A stretch of DNA of 64,000 bases, from positions 44,710 to 108,709 of the forward strand of contig JAUSHK010000003.1 of assembly GCA_030648515.1 (NCBI GenBank), in the 5' to 3' direction. Each line of letters starts with the position of its first letter. Position 1 is the first letter of the stretch. The notes beneath the pieces were generated by a model, which searched no databases, had not been told where the DNA came from, and was given only the letters and a program-made list of their open reading frames with translations. Of the stretch, positions 16,151 to 55,426 are shown in pieces. This DNA comes from Candidatus Jorgensenbacteria bacterium (GTDB lineage: Bacteria; Patescibacteriota; Minisyncoccia; UBA6257; GWB1-50-10). A program made the position numbers and the translations under genes.

Positions 16151-16417
16151 GTTGAGGGGTTAACCCTGAGCTTAAGCCTAAGGACTTAAGTGTAATCGCA
16201 GGCTGAGATCTGTGGGCATCAAATTGCCAGAGCAGGCAAATTAAAAAACTTTCCCGAACAAGTTCAGAAAAGAAGAGGCCTTTCCGAGGATATTTCCAGC
16301 CAAAACCAGAAAGTCCTGTACATAAGAAAGAATCCCTGTGCCCACAGGTCCCAACCCCCGATTCAACGCTCTAATGGGGGATGTTAGCATAATAGAAAGG
16401 ATTTGTCAATATAGCTT

Positions 16418-49148: not shown

Positions 49149-49242
49149 TCGTACCGCAAATATGTTTGATTGTCAAAATTCCGTCCGAAATGGTGCCTGC
49201 CCCGTTTCCAACGGGTGTCGCACAATAATGTACAATAAAGAT

Positions 49243-50139
49243 ATGACAGAGATTGAAAAATTGATGCAGGATTACCTTTCCTATCTTGAAATTGAAAAAA
49301 ACCGCTCCCGAAAAACGCAGGAAAATTATGGGCGCTACCTCAAGGTTTTCATAAAGGAATCAGGAATACGATCGGCGCGCGACATAACGCAGGACACGGT
49401 CCGCAATTTCCGATTGAAACTCGCAAAAGGAGATACTAAAAAAATAACGCAGAGCTATTACGTTATCGCGATACGCAGCTTCTTAAAATATCTCATAAAG
49501 CGCGGGATGAAAGCGCTCTCTCCTGAGATGATTGAACTGCCTAAGGTAACGCGGCGGGAAATAGAAGTATTGAGTTATGACGAGCTTGAGCGGCTCGTTG
49601 GCACTCCTGCCGGAAGCGATATTCGTTCGCTCCGCGACAGGGCGATTTTAGAAACGCTGTTTTCAACCGGCCTCCGCCTTTCGGAGCTCTGCTCGCTTGA
49701 TAGGTATATTGATTGGAAACGCGGCGAGATTTCAATCCGCGGAAAAGGCGACAAATTGCGCGTTGTGTTCCTCTCCCCTACCGCGAAGGAAAAACTCAAA
49801 GCGTATCTTGATAAGCGCACCGACACGGAAGAAGCGCTCTTTGTAAGCATTTCAAAAGCCAAAGTCCCGAAAGTTTTGGGACGCGTAATTCCGCGCGCGG
49901 TGGAGCGCCTTGTTGATTTTTATGCGCGCAAAGCCGGTATCGCTAAAAAAGTGCATCCGCATCTCTTGCGTCACTCGTTTGCCACCGACTTATTAGTAAA
50001 CGGCGCCGATCTCCGCTCGGTGCAGGAACTCCTTGGCCACGCGAATATCGCGACAACCCAAATCTACACACATCTCACAAATAAAGAGCTCCGCGAAGTC
50101 CACTCCGCCTTTCACGGCGTAAGGAGAAAGGAGAAATAG
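49243..50139 (+). CDS. tyrosine site-specific recombinase XerC/XerD family (start at internal Met; track ORF extends to 49051)
   Basis: R..H..R..Y catalytic motifs (LLRHSFAT, LLGHANIATTQIYTHL). Confidence 0.75.
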   Translation: MTEIEKLMQDYLSYLEIEKNRSRKTQENYGRYLKVFIKESGIRSARDITQDTVRNFRLKLAKGDTKKITQSYYVIAIRSFLKYLIKRGMKALSPEMIELPKVTRREIEVLSYDELERLVGTPAGSDIRSLRDRAILETLFSTGLRLSELCSLDRYIDWKRGEISIRGKGDKLRVVFLSPTAKEKLKAYLDKRTDTEEALFVSISKAKVPKVLGRVIPRAVERLVDFYARKAGIAKKVHPHLLRHSFATDLLVNGADLRSVQELLGHANIATTQIYTHLTNKELREVHSAFHGVRRKEK

Positions 50140-50165
50140 CTTTGGTACTTGTGGTTAACCCTTAA

Positions 50166-50759
50166 TTAAGCTTTAGCATCCTTATCATTTTCTTCTTTTG
50201 TTTTTTGCAAGATAGACCGCAATTGTTCTGTATATCCATTTATTCTTTCATATTCTTGACCATCCGTTGTTCTTGTTTTTCCCTCAATGAAATCATATCT
50301 GATATCTGCAAAATCTTCTATATAAATTTCTTTTTTATCGGTAGTTATAAATATATATTTATCCCCATTCTTGGTGATTGTATTTATGCCTAATTTTAGT
50401 AATTCGGCATTTCCTATGTCCTTGCCCATTTTTTCTATGTTATGCAATAAAGCTTTCAATTTTTTATTGACTTCATTTTTATTCAAAAAATTATCCTTCA
50501 TTACAATTCTGGATTTTAAGATTAATTCGGTGTTATAAGACAATAAAATATAAAGGGATCTTAAATAAGCTGAACCGTCGAGCCGACATCTTTCTGAGTC
50601 TAAGTAGTTTTTTATAAAAGAAAGTCCAGTAGAAGCCCTGGTTGCCATACGAAACGCAATATCATATTTTTCTTTTTTATTCATTTTTTCTTTTATTATT
50701 TTAAATCTTATGAGTAAAATAAAGGCAAAAGTTATTATTGCGTCTTTTACTTTTTTCAC
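50166..50759 (-). CDS. hypothetical protein in low-GC cassette
   Basis: 197-aa ORF in ~30% GC segment, 4-nt overlap with upstream partner gene. Confidence 0.4.
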   Translation of the reverse strand: MKKVKDAIITFAFILLIRFKIIKEKMNKKEKYDIAFRMATRASTGLSFIKNYLDSERCRLDGSAYLRSLYILLSYNTELILKSRIVMKDNFLNKNEVNKKLKALLHNIEKMGKDIGNAELLKLGINTITKNGDKYIFITTDKKEIYIEDFADIRYDFIEGKTRTTDGQEYERINGYTEQLRSILQKTKEENDKDAKA

Positions 50760-51067
50760 ACCTTTAAATTTACTAAAAAGGAAACCAGCTCAACTTTTGT
50801 CTTAAATCTTTTAATAATATCCAACGCTATTTGTTCAAGTGGACTACCTAAAAAATCAGTTTTCAGTATGGGAAAACATTTTTCAATAACCGATGGATTA
50901 TCGCATCTCCAAATTAATTTAGGAAAAATAAAAAATATTTGCTCATAAATTTTGATTCCAGAAATTGAATTGCCAATCGTTACCTTTTCATTACTGTCTA
51001 AAAGTAATTCTATTTCGCTGGGATAAATTGATGTGCTGTCTTGATATGTGTGAATAATTTTGCCCAT
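50756..51067 (-). CDS. hypothetical protein in low-GC cassette
   Basis: 103-aa ORF, translationally coupled to 50166..50759. Confidence 0.4.
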   Translation of the reverse strand: MGKIIHTYQDSTSIYPSEIELLLDSNEKVTIGNSISGIKIYEQIFFIFPKLIWRCDNPSVIEKCFPILKTDFLGSPLEQIALDIIKRFKTKVELVSFLVNLKV

Positions 51068-51111
51068 GTTTTTGAAATTATTTTTTTACTAATGTTAATT
51101 ATTTCTTCCTG

Positions 51112-51193
51112 TGCCTCCGAGAGGATTTGAACCTCTAACCCTTGCGGGACAGCGTCCTAAGCGCTGCGCGTATGCCAGTTCCGCCACGGAGGC
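51112..51193 (-). tRNA. tRNA-Leu (anticodon TAG), long variable arm
   Basis: 82-nt cloverleaf by hand: acceptor GCCTCCG/CGGAGGC, 3-bp D stem, anticodon loop CTTAGGA, 13-nt variable arm hairpin, T-loop TTCAAAT. Confidence 0.8.
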
Positions 51194-51280
51194 ATGAACC
51201 CCGTGTAGTTACATAACTATTTACGGGGTAACCCTGATTTCATGGGCTAATTCCCCTCATAATACCAGCGTTTCTGCTAT

Positions 51281-51309
51281 TTGACAAATAAAGTTTTTCG
51301 CGGTATTAT
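51281..51309 (+). promoter_or_regulatory. near-consensus sigma70 promoter TTGACA-N17-TATTAT
   Basis: exact -35, 17-nt spacer, 5/6 -10; ~58 nt upstream of ATG 51368 with AAAGGAG RBS. Confidence 0.6.
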
Positions 51310-51367
51310 TTTAATAGAAACTTAATTCATTAAATACGAGACAAAATTATAAGAAAGGAGTTGTGCT

Positions 51368-51769
51368 ATGGAAAAGGTAAACATGGGTTTTTCAAAACTG
51401 TTAAAACTACTAACAATGACTGACTGTAAGAAAGATATCGAAAAATTTAAGGAAGAAATGTTGATACTCGGTCTCTCTATAGAATTCATATGCAATCCAA
51501 CCGTTTTATCAGAGTTGACAATTGATGGTTCAGGCAACAACCCAGAGATTGATCGTGGTTCAATAAATTCTTCCGACCTCGATGATAGAATCCTTCCATG
51601 TATTACTTTAGGAAGTGCGGAGAAAATCCAGAAGTTTTTAGAAGAAAATCACGCAGATGGGGCGTTGGTACTTTCGGGACTAATAAATGGAAATAGGTAT
51701 GACGGATATATATTTTCCATTACAATCCAGCCATATAAGTTAATTCGCCAAGGCGGAAAAGATTCATAA
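51368..51769 (+). CDS. hypothetical protein
   Basis: 133 aa, strong RBS and consensus promoter, followed by terminator. Confidence 0.45.
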   Translation: MEKVNMGFSKLLKLLTMTDCKKDIEKFKEEMLILGLSIEFICNPTVLSELTIDGSGNNPEIDRGSINSSDLDDRILPCITLGSAEKIQKFLEENHADGALVLSGLINGNRYDGYIFSITIQPYKLIRQGGKDS

Positions 51770-51843
51770 CGGCCTTTTGTGTAGAGTTAGGATACAATTT
51801 TATTCATGGTATAAATTAGTAGTAGTGCTAACTTTCTAAAATA

Positions 51844-51872
51844 CTCCCTTGTTAACAGCAAGGGAGTTTTTA
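51844..51872 (+). terminator. rho-independent terminator
   Basis: stem ctcccttg/caagggag, then TTTTTATT. Confidence 0.65.
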
Positions 51873-51957
51873 TTAGTAAATTCTACTATTTCAGTTGCGC
51901 CATAAAATACCGCATTTTTCCTAGGTTTTCTACATAATAACACCAATTTTTCGCTGT

Positions 51958-51986
51958 TTGACAAATCCGTGCTCTCGTGCTAGAAT
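51958..51986 (+). promoter_or_regulatory. consensus sigma70 promoter TTGACA-N17-TAGAAT
   Basis: exact -35, 17-nt spacer, 5/6 -10; upstream sequence duplicates that of promoter at 51281. Confidence 0.6.
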
Positions 51987-52037
51987 ATGACCAGTTATTA
52001 AACAATTAAAAACTCTAATTTAAGAAAGGAAAAATCA

Positions 52038-53138
52038 ATGAAAGCAGAGATAATAAATTTTCTGAAAGGAACGCTTTCGAAAGTTGTTACAAGCGGCGAA
52101 AAGTTTCTGGAGAAACCAAGGCCGCTTTTGCTGCCAGGAACAATCTTTTTTGCAGTAGCGGGTATTCTTGAGGTATGTATTTACTACGCGGCAAACGTGT
52201 TTGGCCTCCCGTGGTTTGTTGAATTAATGTGTCTTGTGGGCGGCGTAATTATTATAATTATTGCCACACTTTTTCTCACTATAAGCATCCCAGCGTACAA
52301 CTTCGGAGTAGTTGAACGATTTGGAAAACGTACAAGAGTGTTGTATGAAGGACTAAATCTTCGCTTACCATTTGAGGAGGTAAAATTTATTTCCATGGAG
52401 GTTATCTCCGTAGAAGTAAAAACTGGATTTACCACTTTTGATAAGCTTCACTTAACATGTGTTGGTTCGCTTCAATATAGGGCAAATCCAGATGTTAGGG
52501 ATGAAGAAAATCGTAATGTTTTCGTAACAATGTCGGAAAGCATTATTAAGAGTGGTATTGTGGCCGGAATAGAAGCGAAGTTAGGAGCGTTGGGTGGTGT
52601 ATATAAAGGAGAGGATTTCATACAATCGCGCCACGCAATTGCCGACATTATCAACGCTTTTCTTCGTCTGGGAACACTTCCACATGAAGAACATCAAAAA
52701 AACGGTTGTGGTGTTCAAGATTGTAAATTTATAGGGCAGAGAGTGGAAGCAAAAGATCTAATAGAATTCTACAATTCTCACTGGGATTGGATCAAGAAAA
52801 TGCTTTCTGAAACGCAGGGAAGTTCTCAGTCGGGAATCGAAACGTTGTACGGAATTGATATTAGGAAGTTTGAACTTTCCGACATTTCTTTCGAGAAAGA
52901 AACAAAAGAAGCGTTTGAGAAAGAACAACAGGTAAAAGCTAAGAAAAATGCATACCTGACCAAATTAGCAATGGCTAAAATCACTATGCGTAAACTTGGC
53001 GCATCACCTCAAGTTGCCTTGAATAGCGTGGATGTTGCGCTTGATCCTCAGGTAAAGAAAAGCGTAGTTTCTGTGGAAGGAGAAATTGGGGTATTGGGTG
53101 GATTACTTGGAAAATTAACAAATGAAGGAGGGAGGTAA
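52038..53138 (+). CDS. SPFH/Band-7 (stomatin/HflK-like) domain membrane protein
   Basis: N-terminal TM helices then YNFGVVERFGK..LNLRLPFEEV SPFH core. Confidence 0.6.
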   Translation: MKAEIINFLKGTLSKVVTSGEKFLEKPRPLLLPGTIFFAVAGILEVCIYYAANVFGLPWFVELMCLVGGVIIIIIATLFLTISIPAYNFGVVERFGKRTRVLYEGLNLRLPFEEVKFISMEVISVEVKTGFTTFDKLHLTCVGSLQYRANPDVRDEENRNVFVTMSESIIKSGIVAGIEAKLGALGGVYKGEDFIQSRHAIADIINAFLRLGTLPHEEHQKNGCGVQDCKFIGQRVEAKDLIEFYNSHWDWIKKMLSETQGSSQSGIETLYGIDIRKFELSDISFEKETKEAFEKEQQVKAKKNAYLTKLAMAKITMRKLGASPQVALNSVDVALDPQVKKSVVSVEGEIGVLGGLLGKLTNEGGR

Positions 53139-53140
53139 TT

Positions 53141-53548
53141 ATGTCTCACGTCATTAATGGGAAAGGAAATGCTTCCCCAAAAGCACTCAAGGTACTAATC
53201 GGAAGCCTCGTGATTATTATAATCGCGGTTGTGGTAATAATGTGGATTTACAGTGCGGCAAATAATCAAAAATCAAGCGCACAGCAACCATTCGAACAGG
53301 CGGAAATTGTTTTAGCGCTGGGACAATTCAAGGACTTTAAGTTAAGTTCGGCGTGGACGCCACGGATTAGTACGCCGCCAGGAAGTCGGTACCTCTTTTA
53401 CATCGAAGACTCCACATTTATTTTGTTTGCGAACGGAAAATTAGACACATTAGTTCCGGGAAACATAAATGTTAATCTTGGAACAAAGAGAGGAATCTTT
53501 AGGTTAAGCGGTAAGGGTGTAACAACAGTAGAGGCGCGCAATATGTAG
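53141..53548 (+). CDS. small membrane-anchored beta-rich protein, NfeD-like partner of SPFH protein
   Basis: one TM then ~90-aa beta-rich domain; 2-nt spacing after SPFH gene with GGAGG RBS. Confidence 0.35.
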   Translation: MSHVINGKGNASPKALKVLIGSLVIIIIAVVVIMWIYSAANNQKSSAQQPFEQAEIVLALGQFKDFKLSSAWTPRISTPPGSRYLFYIEDSTFILFANGKLDTLVPGNINVNLGTKRGIFRLSGKGVTTVEARNM

Positions 53549-53560
53549 TAAAAAATTAAC

Positions 53561-53598
53561 CCCCAAGAAAGGCAGGATCTTTCTTGGGGCGTTTTATT
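53561..53598 (+). terminator. rho-independent terminator of SPFH operon
   Basis: 11-bp stem ccccaagaaag/ctttcttgggg then TTTTATTT. Confidence 0.65.
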
Positions 53599-53600
53599 TA

Positions 53601-53640
53601 GCGACAAATAAAAACCCCCGAAAGGAATTTCGGGGGTTTC
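53601..53640 (-). terminator. rho-independent terminator of minus-strand pilin-like operon
   Basis: stem cccccgaaa/tttcggggg, GGAA loop; on minus strand followed by TTTTTATTT. Confidence 0.6.
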
Positions 53641-53656
53641 AACTTACAAAACCGGT

Positions 53657-54100
53657 CTAGAAACTTGGTCCGCCAGGTACTCCTCTTTGATCGGGTGGGG
53701 TTGCATTAAAATTTCCTGGCTGGCCTAGTATAGGCGAACCAAAGTTGTTAATAGAAGGTTGCGATGTGTCCGCAGTGCCCGCCCCTAAAATGTTTTGCGT
53801 AAACGCAATAATGCCTTTTGCAAGAATTGCGATCGCAACCGCAATCACGGCATACACAATTTGTTTCTTTGCTTTCTCAAGCTTCTCTGTGTCCCCTTGC
53901 GAAAAAAGAAACATATACGCGGCGTATACAATAAAGAGTACCGCAAGAATGAGAAGAAGATAATACGCCCAATTGGTTATGCTTACGATTAGATTAACGA
54001 CTCCTTGTGGCGTATCAACTGCATGAGAAACCTGCGCCAACGCGAACGTTGGCGCAGATAACGCAAGAAACGTAATACTGTTTTTTATGCCTTTCAACAT
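53657..54100 (-). CDS. VirB2/TrbC-like pilin-family small secreted double-helix protein (paralog 4)
   Basis: signal peptide, hydrophobic helix, SQGDTEK loop, second helix; Gly/Pro/Asn-rich mature N-terminus. Confidence 0.45.
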   Translation of the reverse strand: MLKGIKNSITFLALSAPTFALAQVSHAVDTPQGVVNLIVSITNWAYYLLLILAVLFIVYAAYMFLFSQGDTEKLEKAKKQIVYAVIAVAIAILAKGIIAFTQNILGAGTADTSQPSINNFGSPILGQPGNFNATPPDQRGVPGGPSF

Positions 54101-54113
54101 CGAGGAATTTTAT

Positions 54114-54482
54114 TTATCGGCCAAGCGGTGTTGCTGTGCCCTGGCCAAAGAAATTAAGGACAAAACCGACCATTCCTTTCGCGAGAATCGCGATTGCTAT
54201 TGCAATGACAGCGGCAATAATCATCTGCCTCGCCTTTCCTGTTTTTTCTTCATCACCTCCGGAGGTGAGATAGAGGAATGCTGCATAAACAATGAAAATG
54301 ACGGCGAGAATGAGAAGGATGTAAAACATCCAATTCACTATGGCATTACCAAGGCTTGAGATTTGGCCAGACGTGCCATAATCCGCTGTGTTTGGGAGAT
54401 TGAAGCCCCCCGGACCTGCCTGCGCGCCCGCAATAACCGGCAAAACAGCCGCTCCCAGCCCCCACATAATTTTTTTAAACAT
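54114..54482 (-). CDS. VirB2/TrbC-like pilin-family protein (paralog 3)
   Basis: same module: ..IVYAAFLYLTSGGDEEKTGKARQMIIAAVIAIAIAILAKG. Confidence 0.45.
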   Translation of the reverse strand: MFKKIMWGLGAAVLPVIAGAQAGPGGFNLPNTADYGTSGQISSLGNAIVNWMFYILLILAVIFIVYAAFLYLTSGGDEEKTGKARQMIIAAVIAIAIAILAKGMVGFVLNFFGQGTATPLGR

Positions 54483-54534
54483 TTTTTTGATTTTTATTAG
54501 TGTAATCCTCGACCTTTCAGGATTATTTCAATTA

Positions 54535-55002
54535 CTATGATACATTCAGCATGTATTGAATAAGCGAAGTAATGCTTTTTGCAAGTATGATTATACCATA
54601 CCCTATCACGGTGTATAGAATCGTCTGCCTGCCCCTTTTAAACCGTTCAGGATCGCCGCCAGAAAAAAGCATCTGAAAAGCGCCGATGATAATCATAAGC
54701 ACAGCGATTGCCCCGCCGAGTGTTATAAGCCAGCCGACAATTGAATCAAGAAGAGAATAAATTGTGGTGTTTTGACCGAGAGGGTTTTGGAGTCCCTGTA
54801 AAGCGCTTGAGTTTGTCCCATAACCAGCTGCGGGAGGGTTTGTTCTGTAGCCAGTTGCAGGCGGATTTACACCGCCGCCCGCAGCGGGCGGATTTGTCAA
54901 GTAGCCAGTTTGTGCCAAAACAAAACTTGGGCCAATGACTATTAAAATTGTCAATGCTGTAAGGAAAACAACAAAACTACTTTTTTTTGCACCGCACTTC
55001 AT
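54535..55002 (-). CDS. VirB2/TrbC-like pilin-family protein (paralog 2)
   Basis: same module with PPAAG repeats in mature N-terminal region; hairpin downstream at 54485..54510. Confidence 0.45.
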   Translation of the reverse strand: MKCGAKKSSFVVFLTALTILIVIGPSFVLAQTGYLTNPPAAGGGVNPPATGYRTNPPAAGYGTNSSALQGLQNPLGQNTTIYSLLDSIVGWLITLGGAIAVLMIIIGAFQMLFSGGDPERFKRGRQTILYTVIGYGIIILAKSITSLIQYMLNVS

Positions 55003-55015
55003 TGGTTAGATTATA

Positions 55016-55426
55016 TCACTCGCACCTTACTTGCGACCATGGGACATTAGCTCCGCCGGTAAGAATATGAAAAACCTCATTTACAAGAAGCCATGCGAGA
55101 ACAACAATCACGAGCCCTATAATCGCGCTTGTAATCTTTGACCTCCCGCTTCCAAACCTGCTGGTATCTCCGGCGGATGTCATCATTAAAATTGCGCCAT
55201 AAACAATCATTACGATTGTGACTAAAATCGCGATTTGAACCATGTAGTTGATAATATTCGAAGTTACGATAATGCCGTCGCAAAAACTGCACGGCCCAGT
55301 AGGCCCGCCGGTTGTGATTTTTGGCGCGTTAGGATTAGAACTGCAGGTAGCGCCTGCCCAAATATTCTGCGCCCCCGCGACGAAGGGAAGGAAGTAAGCT
55401 AAAGCAATAAATAAATATTTTTTCAT
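55016..55426 (-). CDS. VirB2/TrbC-like pilin-family protein (paralog 1)
   Basis: same module: ..IVYGAILMMTSAGDTSRFGSGRSKITSAIIGLVIVVLA; Cys pairs in mature N-terminal part. Confidence 0.45.
   Translation of the reverse strand: MKKYLFIALAYFLPFVAGAQNIWAGATCSSNPNAPKITTGGPTGPCSFCDGIIVTSNIINYMVQIAILVTIVMIVYGAILMMTSAGDTSRFGSGRSKITSAIIGLVIVVLAWLLVNEVFHILTGGANVPWSQVRCE

What the first reader, a model, noticed from the sequence alone, without database searches (positions are those of the whole stretch)
51257..51986. Duplicated consensus sigma70 promoter modules driving two adjacent units in a reduced-GC region
Seen: TTGACA-N17-TATTAT (51281..51309) and TTGACA-N17-TAGAAT (51958..51986). Each is preceded by a similar ~30-nt upstream segment (cataataccagcgtttctgctatttgacaaat versus cataataacaccaatttttcgctgtttgacaaat), and each is followed ~55 nt later by an AAAGGA(G) RBS and ATG (51368 and 52038). 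A clean terminator (51844..51872) separates the units. Such exact -35 hexamers are rare elsewhere in the window. Inference: strongly expressed, possibly recently duplicated or mobile promoter cassette controlling a hypothetical 133-aa protein and the SPFH/NfeD-like pair.
Basis: seen in the sequence. Interest (0 to 1): 0.5.

Follow-up and report, generated by a model that had tools for sequence, protein, structure and literature searches.

The report
Two-way tRNA-Leu promoter present twice
The two look-alike strong promoters are two copies of a conserved two-way promoter that in related bacteria sits between a leucine tRNA gene and a membrane-scaffold (SPFH) operon, and it probably occurs twice here because a block of foreign DNA carrying its own tRNA and promoter landed in the old tRNA gene; this is a tidy but fairly ordinary piece of genome history.

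Summary
In detail: there are two 11/12 sigma70 promoters (51281-51309 and 51958-51986), each with a 45-52 nt leader, a TAAGAAAGGA ribosome-binding site and an ATG, separated by a terminator. The shared upstream "CATAATAnCA" is the reverse complement of an extended -10 (TGnTATTATG). Together with TTGTCA, which overlaps the + strand TTGACA by 5 bp, it forms a mirror promoter. P1 is therefore a symmetric 51-bp back-to-back promoter with 17/17 spacers; its minus arm faces tRNA-Leu(tag) (51111-51193).

The same architecture lies beside tRNA-Leu(tag) in six other Paceibacteria loci, usually driving the SPFH operon. Synteny (rpsO-xer-tRNA-Leu-SPFH-pilins) is conserved, so the SPFH pair is core, not mobile.

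- The closest relative (L015) has one promoter. Its left 34 nt are 100% identical to P1, and its whole 62 nt align to P2 at 77%.
- A decayed tRNA-Leu 5' remnant lies next to P2.

Best model: a low-GC block (about 50165-51891: two cargo ORFs, an intact tRNA-Leu, P1, the near-orphan orf133 and a terminator) disrupted the old tRNA-Leu and left P2 with an orphaned minus arm.

This is not a recent local duplication or a repeated mobile promoter. The NfeD label for the SPFH partner is unsupported. No transcription start sites were available.

The parts
51259..51309 (.). P1, a symmetric back-to-back promoter of 51 bp. Minus arm: -10 TATTAT (51264->51259) with TGn (51267-51266). Shared core: TTTGACAAAT at 51280-51289, holding + strand -35 TTGACA (51281-51286) and - strand -35 TTGTCA (51287->51282). 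Plus arm: -10 TATTAT (51304-51309). Both spacers are 17 nt.
   Evidence: One search lists both strands (11/12 on +; 10/12 with TG on -); the motif ANNNTA-N16-TTGACAA-N16-TANNNT occurs once in the window (0.03 expected) and next to tRNA-Leu(tag) in L003, L015, L022, L032 and L034. Alignment A5.
51111..51193 (-). Intact tRNA-Leu(tag), the likely product of the minus arm of P1.
   Evidence: ARAGORN; Rfam tRNA 54.8 bits. It is the only promoter-like site between the tRNA 5' end and P1 on the minus strand.
51194..51252 (-). Predicted 59-nt tRNA-Leu 5' leader with two hairpins. The transcription start near 51252 is inferred.
   Evidence: strand folding gives -20.6 kcal/mol, z = -4.0, 0 of 200 shuffles as stable.
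51316..51769 (+). orf133 unit: an unstructured leader of about 52 nt, SD TAAGAAAGGAG (51350-51360) and orf133 (51368-51769). It is a near-orphan gene with 36% GC.
   Evidence: Only itself found among 5.8e9 clusters. One real homologue, P0039 (38% identity), found in an exhaustive search. No Pfam, NCBIfam or PDB match.
51843..51872 (.). Intrinsic terminator: an 11-bp stem flanked by an A run and a T run, usable on both strands. It closes the orf133 unit and would also stop RNA from the minus arm of P2.
   Evidence: folds on both strands.
51892..51911 (-). Decayed remnant of an older tRNA-Leu 5' end (CAGTTGCGCCA) plus the start of its leader (AAAATACC).
   Evidence: Aligns with the L003 tRNA-Leu 5' end plus leader, CAGTTCCGCCACGGGGGCAAAATACC. 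Score 23, reached by 1 of 500 shuffles, among 10 targets tried.
51934..51986 (.). P2. Plus arm: TTGACA (51958-51963), N17, TGcTAGAAT (-10 at 51981-51986), for the SPFH operon. Minus arm: TGtTATTAT (51942->51934) with TTGTCA (51964->51959), but with a 19-nt spacer and no gene downstream, so it is an orphaned tRNA promoter arm.
   Evidence: W 51937-51997 aligns with the single SPFH promoter of L015 at 77% over 62 nt, E = 1.6e-6.
52038..53548 (+). SPFH/Band_7 gene (52038-53138) and a translationally coupled single-pass membrane partner (53141-53548). This is the conserved core operon.
   Evidence: Band_7 E = 1.6e-15. Synteny in L002-L005, L013 and L014. The partner has no NfeD hit.
50166..51067 (-). 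orf103 (50756-51067) and orf197 (50166-50759): 28-30% GC cargo genes downstream of tRNA-Leu, absent from relatives. They are possibly co-transcribed with the tRNA from the minus arm of P1.
   Evidence: GC and GC3 values. orf197 homologues at 66-75% identity lie next to AbiE, MmeI-like RM and HTH/M78 genes. The gap between the tRNA and orf103 is only 43 nt and has no good promoter.
50143..50164 (-). Possible decayed 3' remnant of the older tRNA-Leu (TGGTAC...TAACCCTTA), directly after the xer stop codon.
   Evidence: TTTGGT(A/G)C matches the xer-to-tRNA junction of L002, L004, L018 and L032. TAACCCTT(A) matches the tRNA-Leu genes of W, L008, L009 and L034 (5-24 of 500 shuffles each). This is weak evidence.
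49228..50139 (+). XerC/XerD-like tyrosine recombinase, a conserved neighbour of tRNA-Leu in relatives. It is not part of the inserted block.
   Evidence: Pfam Phage_integrase 2.8e-39; best NCBIfam hits are XerC and XerD; synteny.

Best explanation
Both sites are ordinary sigma70-type promoters of a Candidatus Jorgensenbacteria (CPR/Paceibacteria) genome. They are two copies of one conserved, symmetric back-to-back promoter.

**Architecture.** In this design the 7-mer TTGACAA, within TTTGACAAAT, serves as the -35 on both strands: TTGACA on one and TTGTCA on the other, overlapping by 5 bp. Each strand has its own -10 placed 17 nt away. The predicted divergent starts are therefore about 65 bp apart.

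**Ancestral function.** The minus arm transcribes tRNA-Leu(tag). The plus arm transcribes the SPFH operon.

**P1 (51259-51309).** This copy is intact. It serves the resident tRNA-Leu, and probably the two cargo genes behind it, on the minus strand. It serves orf133 on the plus strand.

**P2 (51934-51986).** This is the native orthologue of the SPFH promoter. Its plus arm still drives SPFH and its partner. Its minus arm lost its tRNA: only a 12-20 nt remnant survives, and the spacer is now 19 nt. At most it makes a non-coding RNA of about 90 nt that ends at the two-way terminator.

**Why there are two copies.** A foreign low-GC block of about 1.7 kb (roughly 50165-51891) was inserted into the old tRNA-Leu gene and replaced it. 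The block carries orf197, orf103, a functional tRNA-Leu(tag) with its own copy of the promoter, orf133 and a terminator.

**Shown versus inferred.** Shown: the sequence architecture, its conservation, the synteny and the identity pattern with L015. Inferred: the transcription starts, the promoter strengths, and the direction and mechanism of the insertion.
For: **Consensus use**
- TTGACA-N16-18-TANNNT occurs 7 times against 1.28 expected, and 6 of those lie in front of genes.
- tRNA-Ile has TTGACA-N17-GATTAT just upstream.

**Mirror promoter**
- The minus strand carries TTGTCA-17-TGgTATTAT at 51287..51259.
- The fully symmetric 17/17 motif occurs once in 64 kb (0.03 expected).
- It also lies beside tRNA-Leu(tag) in L003, L015, L022, L032 and L034. 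L004 has it with GATAAT as the -10.
- Predicted tRNA leaders in those loci are 5-30 nt.

**Synteny**
- The order nusA-pnp-NYN-rpsO | xer | tRNA-Leu(tag) | SPFH+partner | T4SS-pilin genes | SBP | gyrA holds in L002, L003 and L004.
- tRNA-Leu(tag) lies upstream of SPFH in many more loci.
- orf133, orf103 and orf197 are absent from these relatives.

**Identity pattern with L015**
- L015 449-482 matches W 51256-51289 at 100% (34 nt).
- L015 452-513 matches W 51937-51997 at 77% (62 nt, E = 1.6e-6).
- The SPFH coding sequence is only 65-76% identical at the DNA level and 57% at the protein level.

**Other support**
- A tRNA remnant lies next to P2, and a possible 3' remnant follows xer.
- GC is 28-36% in the block against about 50% in core genes.
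- orf197 relatives are closer (66-75% identity) than any SPFH relative found (at most 57%), and they sit in defence-island contexts.
- The right half of P1 lacks the TGn found in P2 and all six orthologous SPFH-side promoters.
Against: - No transcription start or expression data were available, so promoter activity is inferred from consensus and conservation only.
- The tRNA remnants are short: the 5' remnant gives about p = 0.002 before correction for 10 targets, and the 3' remnant gives p of about 0.01-0.05.
- Only one relative (L015, a 2.2-kb contig) carries the decisive identity pattern. No genome with the 'empty site' in a close relative of this MAG was found.
- The 34-nt block of 100% identity is flanked by unrelated leader and spacer sequence. 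A simple transfer of a long donor segment does not explain that by itself.
- No integrase and no att-type direct repeats belong to the block.
- The extended -10 in the minus arm of P2 is perfectly preserved, which is slightly unexpected for a dead element.
Confidence: 0.6

Rival explanations
1. Local tandem duplication. In this view the promoter region (tRNA 5' end, leader, left arm and -35) was duplicated within this genome and orf133 was acquired between the copies. P1-left would be the original, conserved by selection. P2-left would be a decaying duplicate.
For: - The two left arms share CATAATAnCA and TTTC(T)GCTnTTTGACAAAT, 24 of 31 aligned columns.
- Both units share the SD context TAAGAAAGGA, which occurs only twice in the window.
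- A duplicated piece that included the tRNA 5' end would also explain the remnant at 51892-51902.
Against: - The left and right halves of P2 are about equally diverged from L015 (77% overall), as expected for an orthologue. They do not look like a decayed copy of P1-left joined to a native right half.
- The leader fragment beside P2 (AAAATACC) matches the leader of L003, not the present P1 leader.
- The block between the copies, and to the left of the tRNA, has foreign composition.
- The right halves of P1 and P2 are unrelated.
Confidence: 0.17
2. Cassette integration at the -35 core. In this view a circular element of about 677 bp recombined with the chromosomal promoter at the shared core TTTGACAAAT. 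The element would consist of orf133, its terminator and a promoter of its own spanning the circle junction. P1 and P2 would then be attL- and attR-like hybrids.
For: - P1 equals the L015-type left arm joined to an unrelated right half.
- P2 equals a different left arm joined to an L015-type right half.
- The homology break in P1 falls exactly after TTTGACAAAT.
- A Xer-type recombinase gene lies 1.1 kb away.
Against: - The left arm of P2 aligns with L015 as well as its right half does, and it carries a tRNA remnant. It therefore looks chromosomal, not element-borne.
- The xer gene is a conserved core neighbour in relatives that lack any cassette.
- There is no second example, and orf133 has only one distant homologue, in an unrelated context without this promoter.
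- This model does not explain the low-GC cargo on the other side of the tRNA.
Confidence: 0.08
3. Convergence or chance. In this view there are two independent strong promoters that look alike only because both fit the organism's consensus (TTGACAAA..., AT-rich upstream, SD leader). There would be no common origin and no function for the upstream boxes.
For: - TTGACAA(A) is common at promoters in this window (12644, 14418, 16409, 49176).
- Unanchored alignment of the upstream parts alone is not significant (224/1000).
Against: - An extended -10 (TGnTAnnnT) on the opposite strand at promoter distance is expected in only about 0.7% of cases by composition.
- The identical 10-mer CATAATAnCA is far rarer still.
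- The same mirror arrangement is conserved at this locus in six other lineages.
- P2 aligns with the L015 promoter at E = 1.6e-6, and P1-left matches L015 at 34 of 34 positions.
Confidence: 0.07

Closest known systems
Back-to-back and overlapping divergent sigma70 promoter pairs, such as E. coli ilvY/ilvC (PMC4469952) and Neisseria mtrR/mtrCDE with adjacent -35 hexamers (bioRxiv 10.1101/448712)
   Same: Two sigma70 promoters lie on opposite strands and fire away from each other out of one short intergenic region. Their upstream (-35) parts touch or overlap, so the two RNA polymerases must compete or couple through supercoiling.
   Different: Here the two -35 hexamers overlap by 5 bp inside one pseudo-palindrome (TTTGACAAAT), with exactly 17/17 spacing. 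One partner is a tRNA gene. No regulator site is evident. The arrangement is conserved across several CPR lineages. Activity has not been tested.
Bidirectional promoters in the sense of Warman and Grainger, with a shared symmetric -10 element (PMC12825309)
   Same: Sequence symmetry lets a single short stretch of DNA engage RNA polymerase in two orientations and gives divergent transcripts.
   Different: In that class the shared element is the -10 and the divergent starts are typically 18 bp apart (10 or 23 bp are also common). Here the shared element is the -35, each direction has its own -10, and the predicted starts are about 65 bp apart. It is therefore not a member of that class.
Genomic islands and integrative elements inserted at tRNA genes
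   Same: Low-GC accessory genes, absent from relatives, lie directly beside a tRNA gene. tRNA-derived remnants appear to flank the block. The cargo resembles defence-island genes.
   Different: The block has no integrase and no att direct repeat of the tRNA 3' end. Instead of regenerating the target tRNA from a partial copy, the block seems to carry a complete tRNA-Leu with its promoter, and the old gene decayed. L015 shows an analogous but different event: a GIY-YIG ORF plus another tRNA-Leu.
SPFH (Band 7)/NfeD operons
   Same: An SPFH-domain membrane protein is followed by, and translationally coupled to, a small single-pass membrane protein.
   Different: The partner and its seven positional counterparts in related loci have no NfeD (PF01957) match even at E <= 1. 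The family is small and confined to Paceibacteria (35 hits). The N-terminus of the window's protein is about 50 residues longer than in most relatives.

Membership tests
Sigma70-type (-35/-10) promoter | TTGACA-like -35, a 17±1 nt spacer and a TATAAT-like -10 | tested here: met
   P1 and P2 each score 11/12 with 17-nt spacers. The minus arm of P1 scores 10/12 with TGn.
Sigma70-type (-35/-10) promoter | Placed upstream of, and in the orientation of, a transcription unit, and used as the consensus by this organism | tested here: met
   7 full matches against 1.28 expected, 6 of them in front of genes. Leaders are 45-59 nt to orf133, SPFH and tRNA-Leu.
Sigma70-type (-35/-10) promoter | An experimentally mapped transcription start 6-8 nt after the -10 | not testable with these tools
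   No RNA data were available. The starts near 51252 (-), 51316 (+), 51927 (-) and 51993 (+) are predictions.
Back-to-back divergent promoter pair | Two promoters on opposite strands transcribe away from each other and share upstream DNA | tested here: met
   + strand -35 at 51281-51286 and - strand -35 at 51287-51282, each with its own -10. The motif is conserved at the same locus in L003, L004, L015, L022, L032 and L034.
Bidirectional promoter with shared -10 (Warman/Grainger class) | One symmetric -10 element used in both directions, with divergent starts about 18 bp (10 or 23 bp) apart | tested here: not met
   The two -10 boxes lie 39 bp apart on either side of a shared -35, and the predicted starts are about 65 bp apart (definition from PMC12825309).
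Repeated or mobile promoter module (dispersed repeat) | Several near-identical copies in the genome or in other genomes and mobile elements | tested here: not met
   Only P1 and P2 occur in the 64 kb. There were 0 exact hits for a 22-mer in JGI metagenome contigs and for a 25-mer in viral contigs. One identical 34-mer was found, at the orthologous locus of L015. The rest of the MAG could not be searched.
tRNA-targeting integrative element or genomic island | Deviant composition, absence from relatives and adjacency to a tRNA | tested here: met
   28-36% GC against about 50% in core genes. Absent from L002, L003 and L004. The block flanks tRNA-Leu(tag).
tRNA-targeting integrative element or genomic island | Its own integrase, and att direct repeats derived from the tRNA 3' end | tested here: not met
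   The block has no integrase ORF, and the neighbouring xer gene is a conserved core gene. No direct repeat of the tRNA end was reported. Only decayed remnants were found.
SPFH/NfeD operon | An SPFH (Band_7) domain protein | tested here: met
   PF01145 at E = 1.6e-15, 58 bits against a cut-off of 23.6.
SPFH/NfeD operon | A partner protein with an NfeD (PF01957) domain | tested here: not met
   No NfeD hit for orf135 or for 7 partner proteins from related loci at E <= 1.
Rho-independent terminator | A GC-rich hairpin followed by a U run | tested here: met
   51843-51867, 11 bp with 5 GC pairs, followed by TTTTTATT. It also folds on the minus strand, followed by AUUUUAG.

The most novel reading that the evidence does not exclude
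In this reading the tRNA-Leu(tag) gene and its symmetric, -35-sharing two-way promoter form a portable 'expression hub' in CPR bacteria. It would be exchanged between lineages with small cargo genes placed on either side, and it would displace the resident tRNA-Leu without an integrase of its own.

Three observations do not exclude this:
- A 34-bp promoter arm is 100% identical in two organisms whose neighbouring SPFH proteins are only 57% identical.
- The same tRNA locus has been hit independently in the window and in L015.
- The cargo is wired to both arms.

A stronger version holds that the conserved TTTGACAAAT core doubles as a recombination site.
Probability: 0.15. Interest if true: 0.5.

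Novelty: new member of a known kind. Interest (0 to 1): 0.3.

Why it matters
The finding itself is modest. It does give a concrete, testable promoter architecture for an uncultivated CPR lineage, where almost no promoters have been mapped. The architecture has a canonical -35/-10, frequent extended -10 elements, and a conserved -35-sharing divergent design that couples a tRNA gene to a membrane-scaffold operon.

It also documents how a foreign block that brings its own tRNA and promoter can replace an essential tRNA gene and leave a duplicated promoter behind. That helps when reading similar 'duplicated promoter' signals in other reduced genomes. For synthetic biology, the 51-bp symmetric unit is a compact candidate two-way promoter. 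None of this overturns current understanding.

Tried and rejected
1. **Riboswitch or leader RNA in the two 5' UTRs.** No Rfam hit was found even at E <= 1. The leaders are unstructured, with z = +1.05 and +0.79.
2. **Defence or phage annotation of the five local proteins.** PADLOC and PHROGs gave nothing significant.
3. **Close relatives of SPFH in GTDB genomes by single-protein scan.** None were found. The alignment-based scan gave 7 loci.
4. **Exact search for the left arm of P1.** There were 0 hits in JGI metagenome contigs and 0 in viral contigs.
5. **Structure of orf133.** AlphaFold2 on the single sequence gave pLDDT 45.8, so it was unusable and no fold search was run. A profile of orf133 plus P0039 had no PDB match.
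6. **Idea that the 5' UTR and N-terminus of orf133 derive from the SPFH gene of an L015-like donor.** Not significant. The DNA score was reached by 460/1000 shuffles and 448/1000 codon shuffles, and the protein score by 33/300.
7. **Idea that orf103 is homologous to the 96-aa gene preceding orf197 homologues elsewhere.** No alignment was found.
8. **Group I intron in L015 or in the window.** No Rfam intron hit. The intron paper PMC13011429 concerns anticodon-loop introns and does not apply here.
9. **Viral relatives of orf197 and orf133.** None were found.
10. **Low GC of SPFH as evidence of recent import.** Rejected, because SPFH is equally GC-poor relative to core genes in L003.
Full report
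**Observation**

- The promoter scan lists TTGACA-N17-TATTAT at 51281..51309 and TTGACA-N17-TAGAAT at 51958..51986. Both are on the + strand, score 11/12, and are the best two sites in 46-58 kb.
- TAAGAAAGGA precedes the ATG codons at 51368 and 52038.
- An 11-bp hairpin with a T run sits at 51843-51872.
- GC falls to 32-39% between 50 and 53 kb.

The bare hexamer TTGACA is not rare: 22 copies against 26.9 expected. The full pattern TTGACA-N16-18-TANNNT is enriched, with 7 copies against 1.28 expected. Six of the seven lie directly in front of a gene. The core is therefore the organism's normal sigma70 consensus.

The two intergenic regions give a local alignment of 31 columns with 24 matches. 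That score was reached by 1 of 1000 shuffles, but without the -35 the unanchored comparison is not significant.

**What the shared upstream box is**

On the minus strand, the shared CATAATAnCA reads TGnTATTATG, which is an extended -10. The 7-mer TTGACAA reads TTGTCA on the minus strand, offset by one base from the + strand TTGACA.

The scan lists this mirror promoter at P1: TTGTCA-17-TATTAT at 51287..51259, 10/12 with TG. It points at tRNA-Leu(tag), 51111-51193 on the minus strand. No other promoter-like site lies in between. The predicted 59-nt leader folds well, with z = -4.0.

P1 is thus a symmetric 51-bp back-to-back promoter with 17/17 spacers. That strict motif occurs once in the window, against 0.03 expected. 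At P2 the same boxes exist, but the minus-arm spacer is 19 nt and no gene follows. Only the terminator follows, and it also folds on the minus strand.

**Organism and synteny**

The SPFH protein is 100% identical to a protein of a Candidatus Jorgensenbacteria MAG. Its nearest other relative is 57% identical, and the family is small and confined to Paceibacteria.

Relatives L002, L003 and L004 share this gene order:
- nusA-pnp-NYN-rpsO (-)
- xer (+)
- tRNA-Leu(tag) (-)
- SPFH plus a partner of about 150 aa (+)
- T4SS-pilin genes, SBP and gyrA (-)

tRNA-Leu(tag) lies upstream of SPFH in many further loci. The SPFH pair is therefore a core operon, and tRNA-Leu is its ancestral divergent neighbour.

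orf133 is absent from the relatives, and so are the two ORFs between xer and the tRNA (orf197 and orf103).

The partner protein has no NfeD signature.

**Conservation of the two-way promoter**

In L003, L004, L015, L022, L032 and L034, the DNA next to the tRNA-Leu 5' end has three features (alignment A5):
- TTTGACAA(A/T)T.
- A minus-strand -10 placed 17 nt away, giving predicted tRNA leaders of 5-30 nt.
- A plus-strand TGnTAnnnT placed 17 nt away.

Other lineages (L002, L009, L013, L014, L018) use a different, face-to-face solution with TTGACT.

**Why there are two copies**

L015 carries the closest SPFH homologue and has a single promoter.
- Its left 34 nt (449-482) are 100% identical to W 51256-51289, the left arm and core of P1.
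- Its whole 62 nt (452-513) align to P2 (51937-51997) at 77%, E = 1.6e-6.
- That divergence is about the same as for the SPFH coding DNA, 65-76%.
- The right half of P1 is unrelated to either, and it lacks the TGn that P2 and all six orthologous SPFH-side promoters have.

Between the terminator and P2, CAGTTGCGCCA-TAAAATACC aligns with the tRNA-Leu 5' end plus leader of L003 (1 of 500 shuffles). Directly after the xer stop, TTTGGTAC...TAACCCTTA weakly resembles the tRNA 3' end and an internal tRNA segment.

The DNA between these remnants is 28-36% GC, against about 50% in core genes.
- orf197 has homologues at 66-75% identity, closer than any SPFH relative found (at most 57%). They lie next to AbiE, MmeI-like and HTH/M78 genes.
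- orf133 is a near-orphan with one 38%-identical relative, in an unrelated context.

The most economical reading runs as follows. P2 is the native promoter. A foreign block carrying its own tRNA-Leu and an L015-type copy of the promoter (P1) disrupted the old tRNA-Leu. L015 itself shows an analogous event: a 16-nt tRNA remnant, a GIY-YIG-like ORF and a different complete tRNA-Leu.

**Rivals**

- *Local duplication.* It explains the shared boxes and the remnant. It does not explain the equal divergence of both halves of P2 from L015, the L003-like leader fragment, or the foreign composition.
- *Integration of a 677-bp cassette at the TTTGACAAAT core.* It fits the hybrid pattern. It is weakened by the chromosomal look of the left arm of P2, by the core status of xer, and by the lack of other examples.
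- *Pure convergence.* The comparative data argue against it.

**Comparison with known systems**

This is a back-to-back divergent sigma70 promoter pair, a known kind of organisation. Examples are ilvY/ilvC (PMC4469952) and mtrR/mtrCDE, which has adjacent -35 hexamers (10.1101/448712).

It is not the -10-sharing bidirectional class, whose starts are about 18 bp apart (PMC12825309).

The insertion resembles a tRNA-associated island but lacks an integrase and att repeats.

**Limits**

- No RNA data exist here, so all start sites and promoter strengths are inferred.
- The key comparison rests on one short contig (L015).
- The remnants are short.
- The rest of the MAG could not be searched.

**Verdict**

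This is an ordinary type of element with a neat evolutionary explanation. Interest is about 0.3.

Noticed in passing
whole window, e.g. starts at 2938(-), 5372(-), 10301(-), 12687(+), 14471(+), 25767(-), 27308(-), 49139(-), 56735(-), 60401(-), 60465(+): Most genes lack a Shine-Dalgarno sequence, and many have a -10-like box ending only 6-14 nt before the start codon, so leaderless mRNAs seem common in this MAG. The orf133 and SPFH units, with 45-52 nt leaders and TAAGAAAGGA (only two copies in 64 kb), are exceptions.
   Followed up: partly
window 16151-16417, minus strand: A TTGACAAATCC-N-TGcTAACAT promoter-like site (16409..16381) points into a 267-nt gap that has no convincing ORF and no Rfam hit. 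The predicted RNA begins with the hairpin CCCCC...GGGGG and may be an unannotated small RNA.
   Followed up: partly
window 50166-51067 (-); L036-L041: orf197 has 66-75% identical homologues in other metagenome contigs next to AbiEi/AbiEii, an HTH gene plus a 522-aa gene, an MmeI-like RM enzyme and an HTH/M78 peptidase pair, so it is probably defence-island cargo. orf103 has no detectable relative among their neighbours.
   Followed up: partly
L015 47-421: A GIY-YIG-like ORF (137 to about 376, -) lies between a complete but divergent tRNA-Leu(tag) (47-131) and a 16-nt remnant identical to the 5' end of the window's tRNA-Leu. This is a second, independent disruption of the same tRNA locus. No group I intron was detected.
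   Followed up: partly
L008 2040-2770; L013 3590-3860: A Trp-repressor-like ORF lies between tRNA-Leu and SPFH in L008. In L013 it lies upstream of SPFH, and no tRNA was detected in the 9 kb held. A 22-24 nt perfect palindrome (cttgctatcattaatgatagcaag) occurs three times in L008 (near 2050, 2640 and 2745), around that ORF and upstream of SPFH, and a similar one (ttgctaccattaatggtagcaa) occurs twice in L013. It is a likely operator for the repressor, which would mean the SPFH operon is regulated in those lineages.
   Followed up: no
window 53561-53640: Two overlapping strong hairpins form a bidirectional terminator between the convergent SPFH operon and the T4SS-pilin gene array at 53657-55426 (-), which holds four TrbC/VirB2-like pilin paralogues.
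   Followed up: no
window 52038-53138; L003 5001-5942: The SPFH gene is about 10 GC points poorer than neighbouring core genes in both this MAG and L003 (0.40 vs 0.50; 0.39 vs 0.49). This suggests a gene-specific bias or repeated exchange of this operon.
   Followed up: partly
L001 (Logan SRR13727527_860052), start = window ~51160: An independent assembly of the same sequence breaks inside tRNA-Leu. The break could reflect strain variation to the left of the tRNA, that is, genomes with and without the cargo.
   Followed up: no
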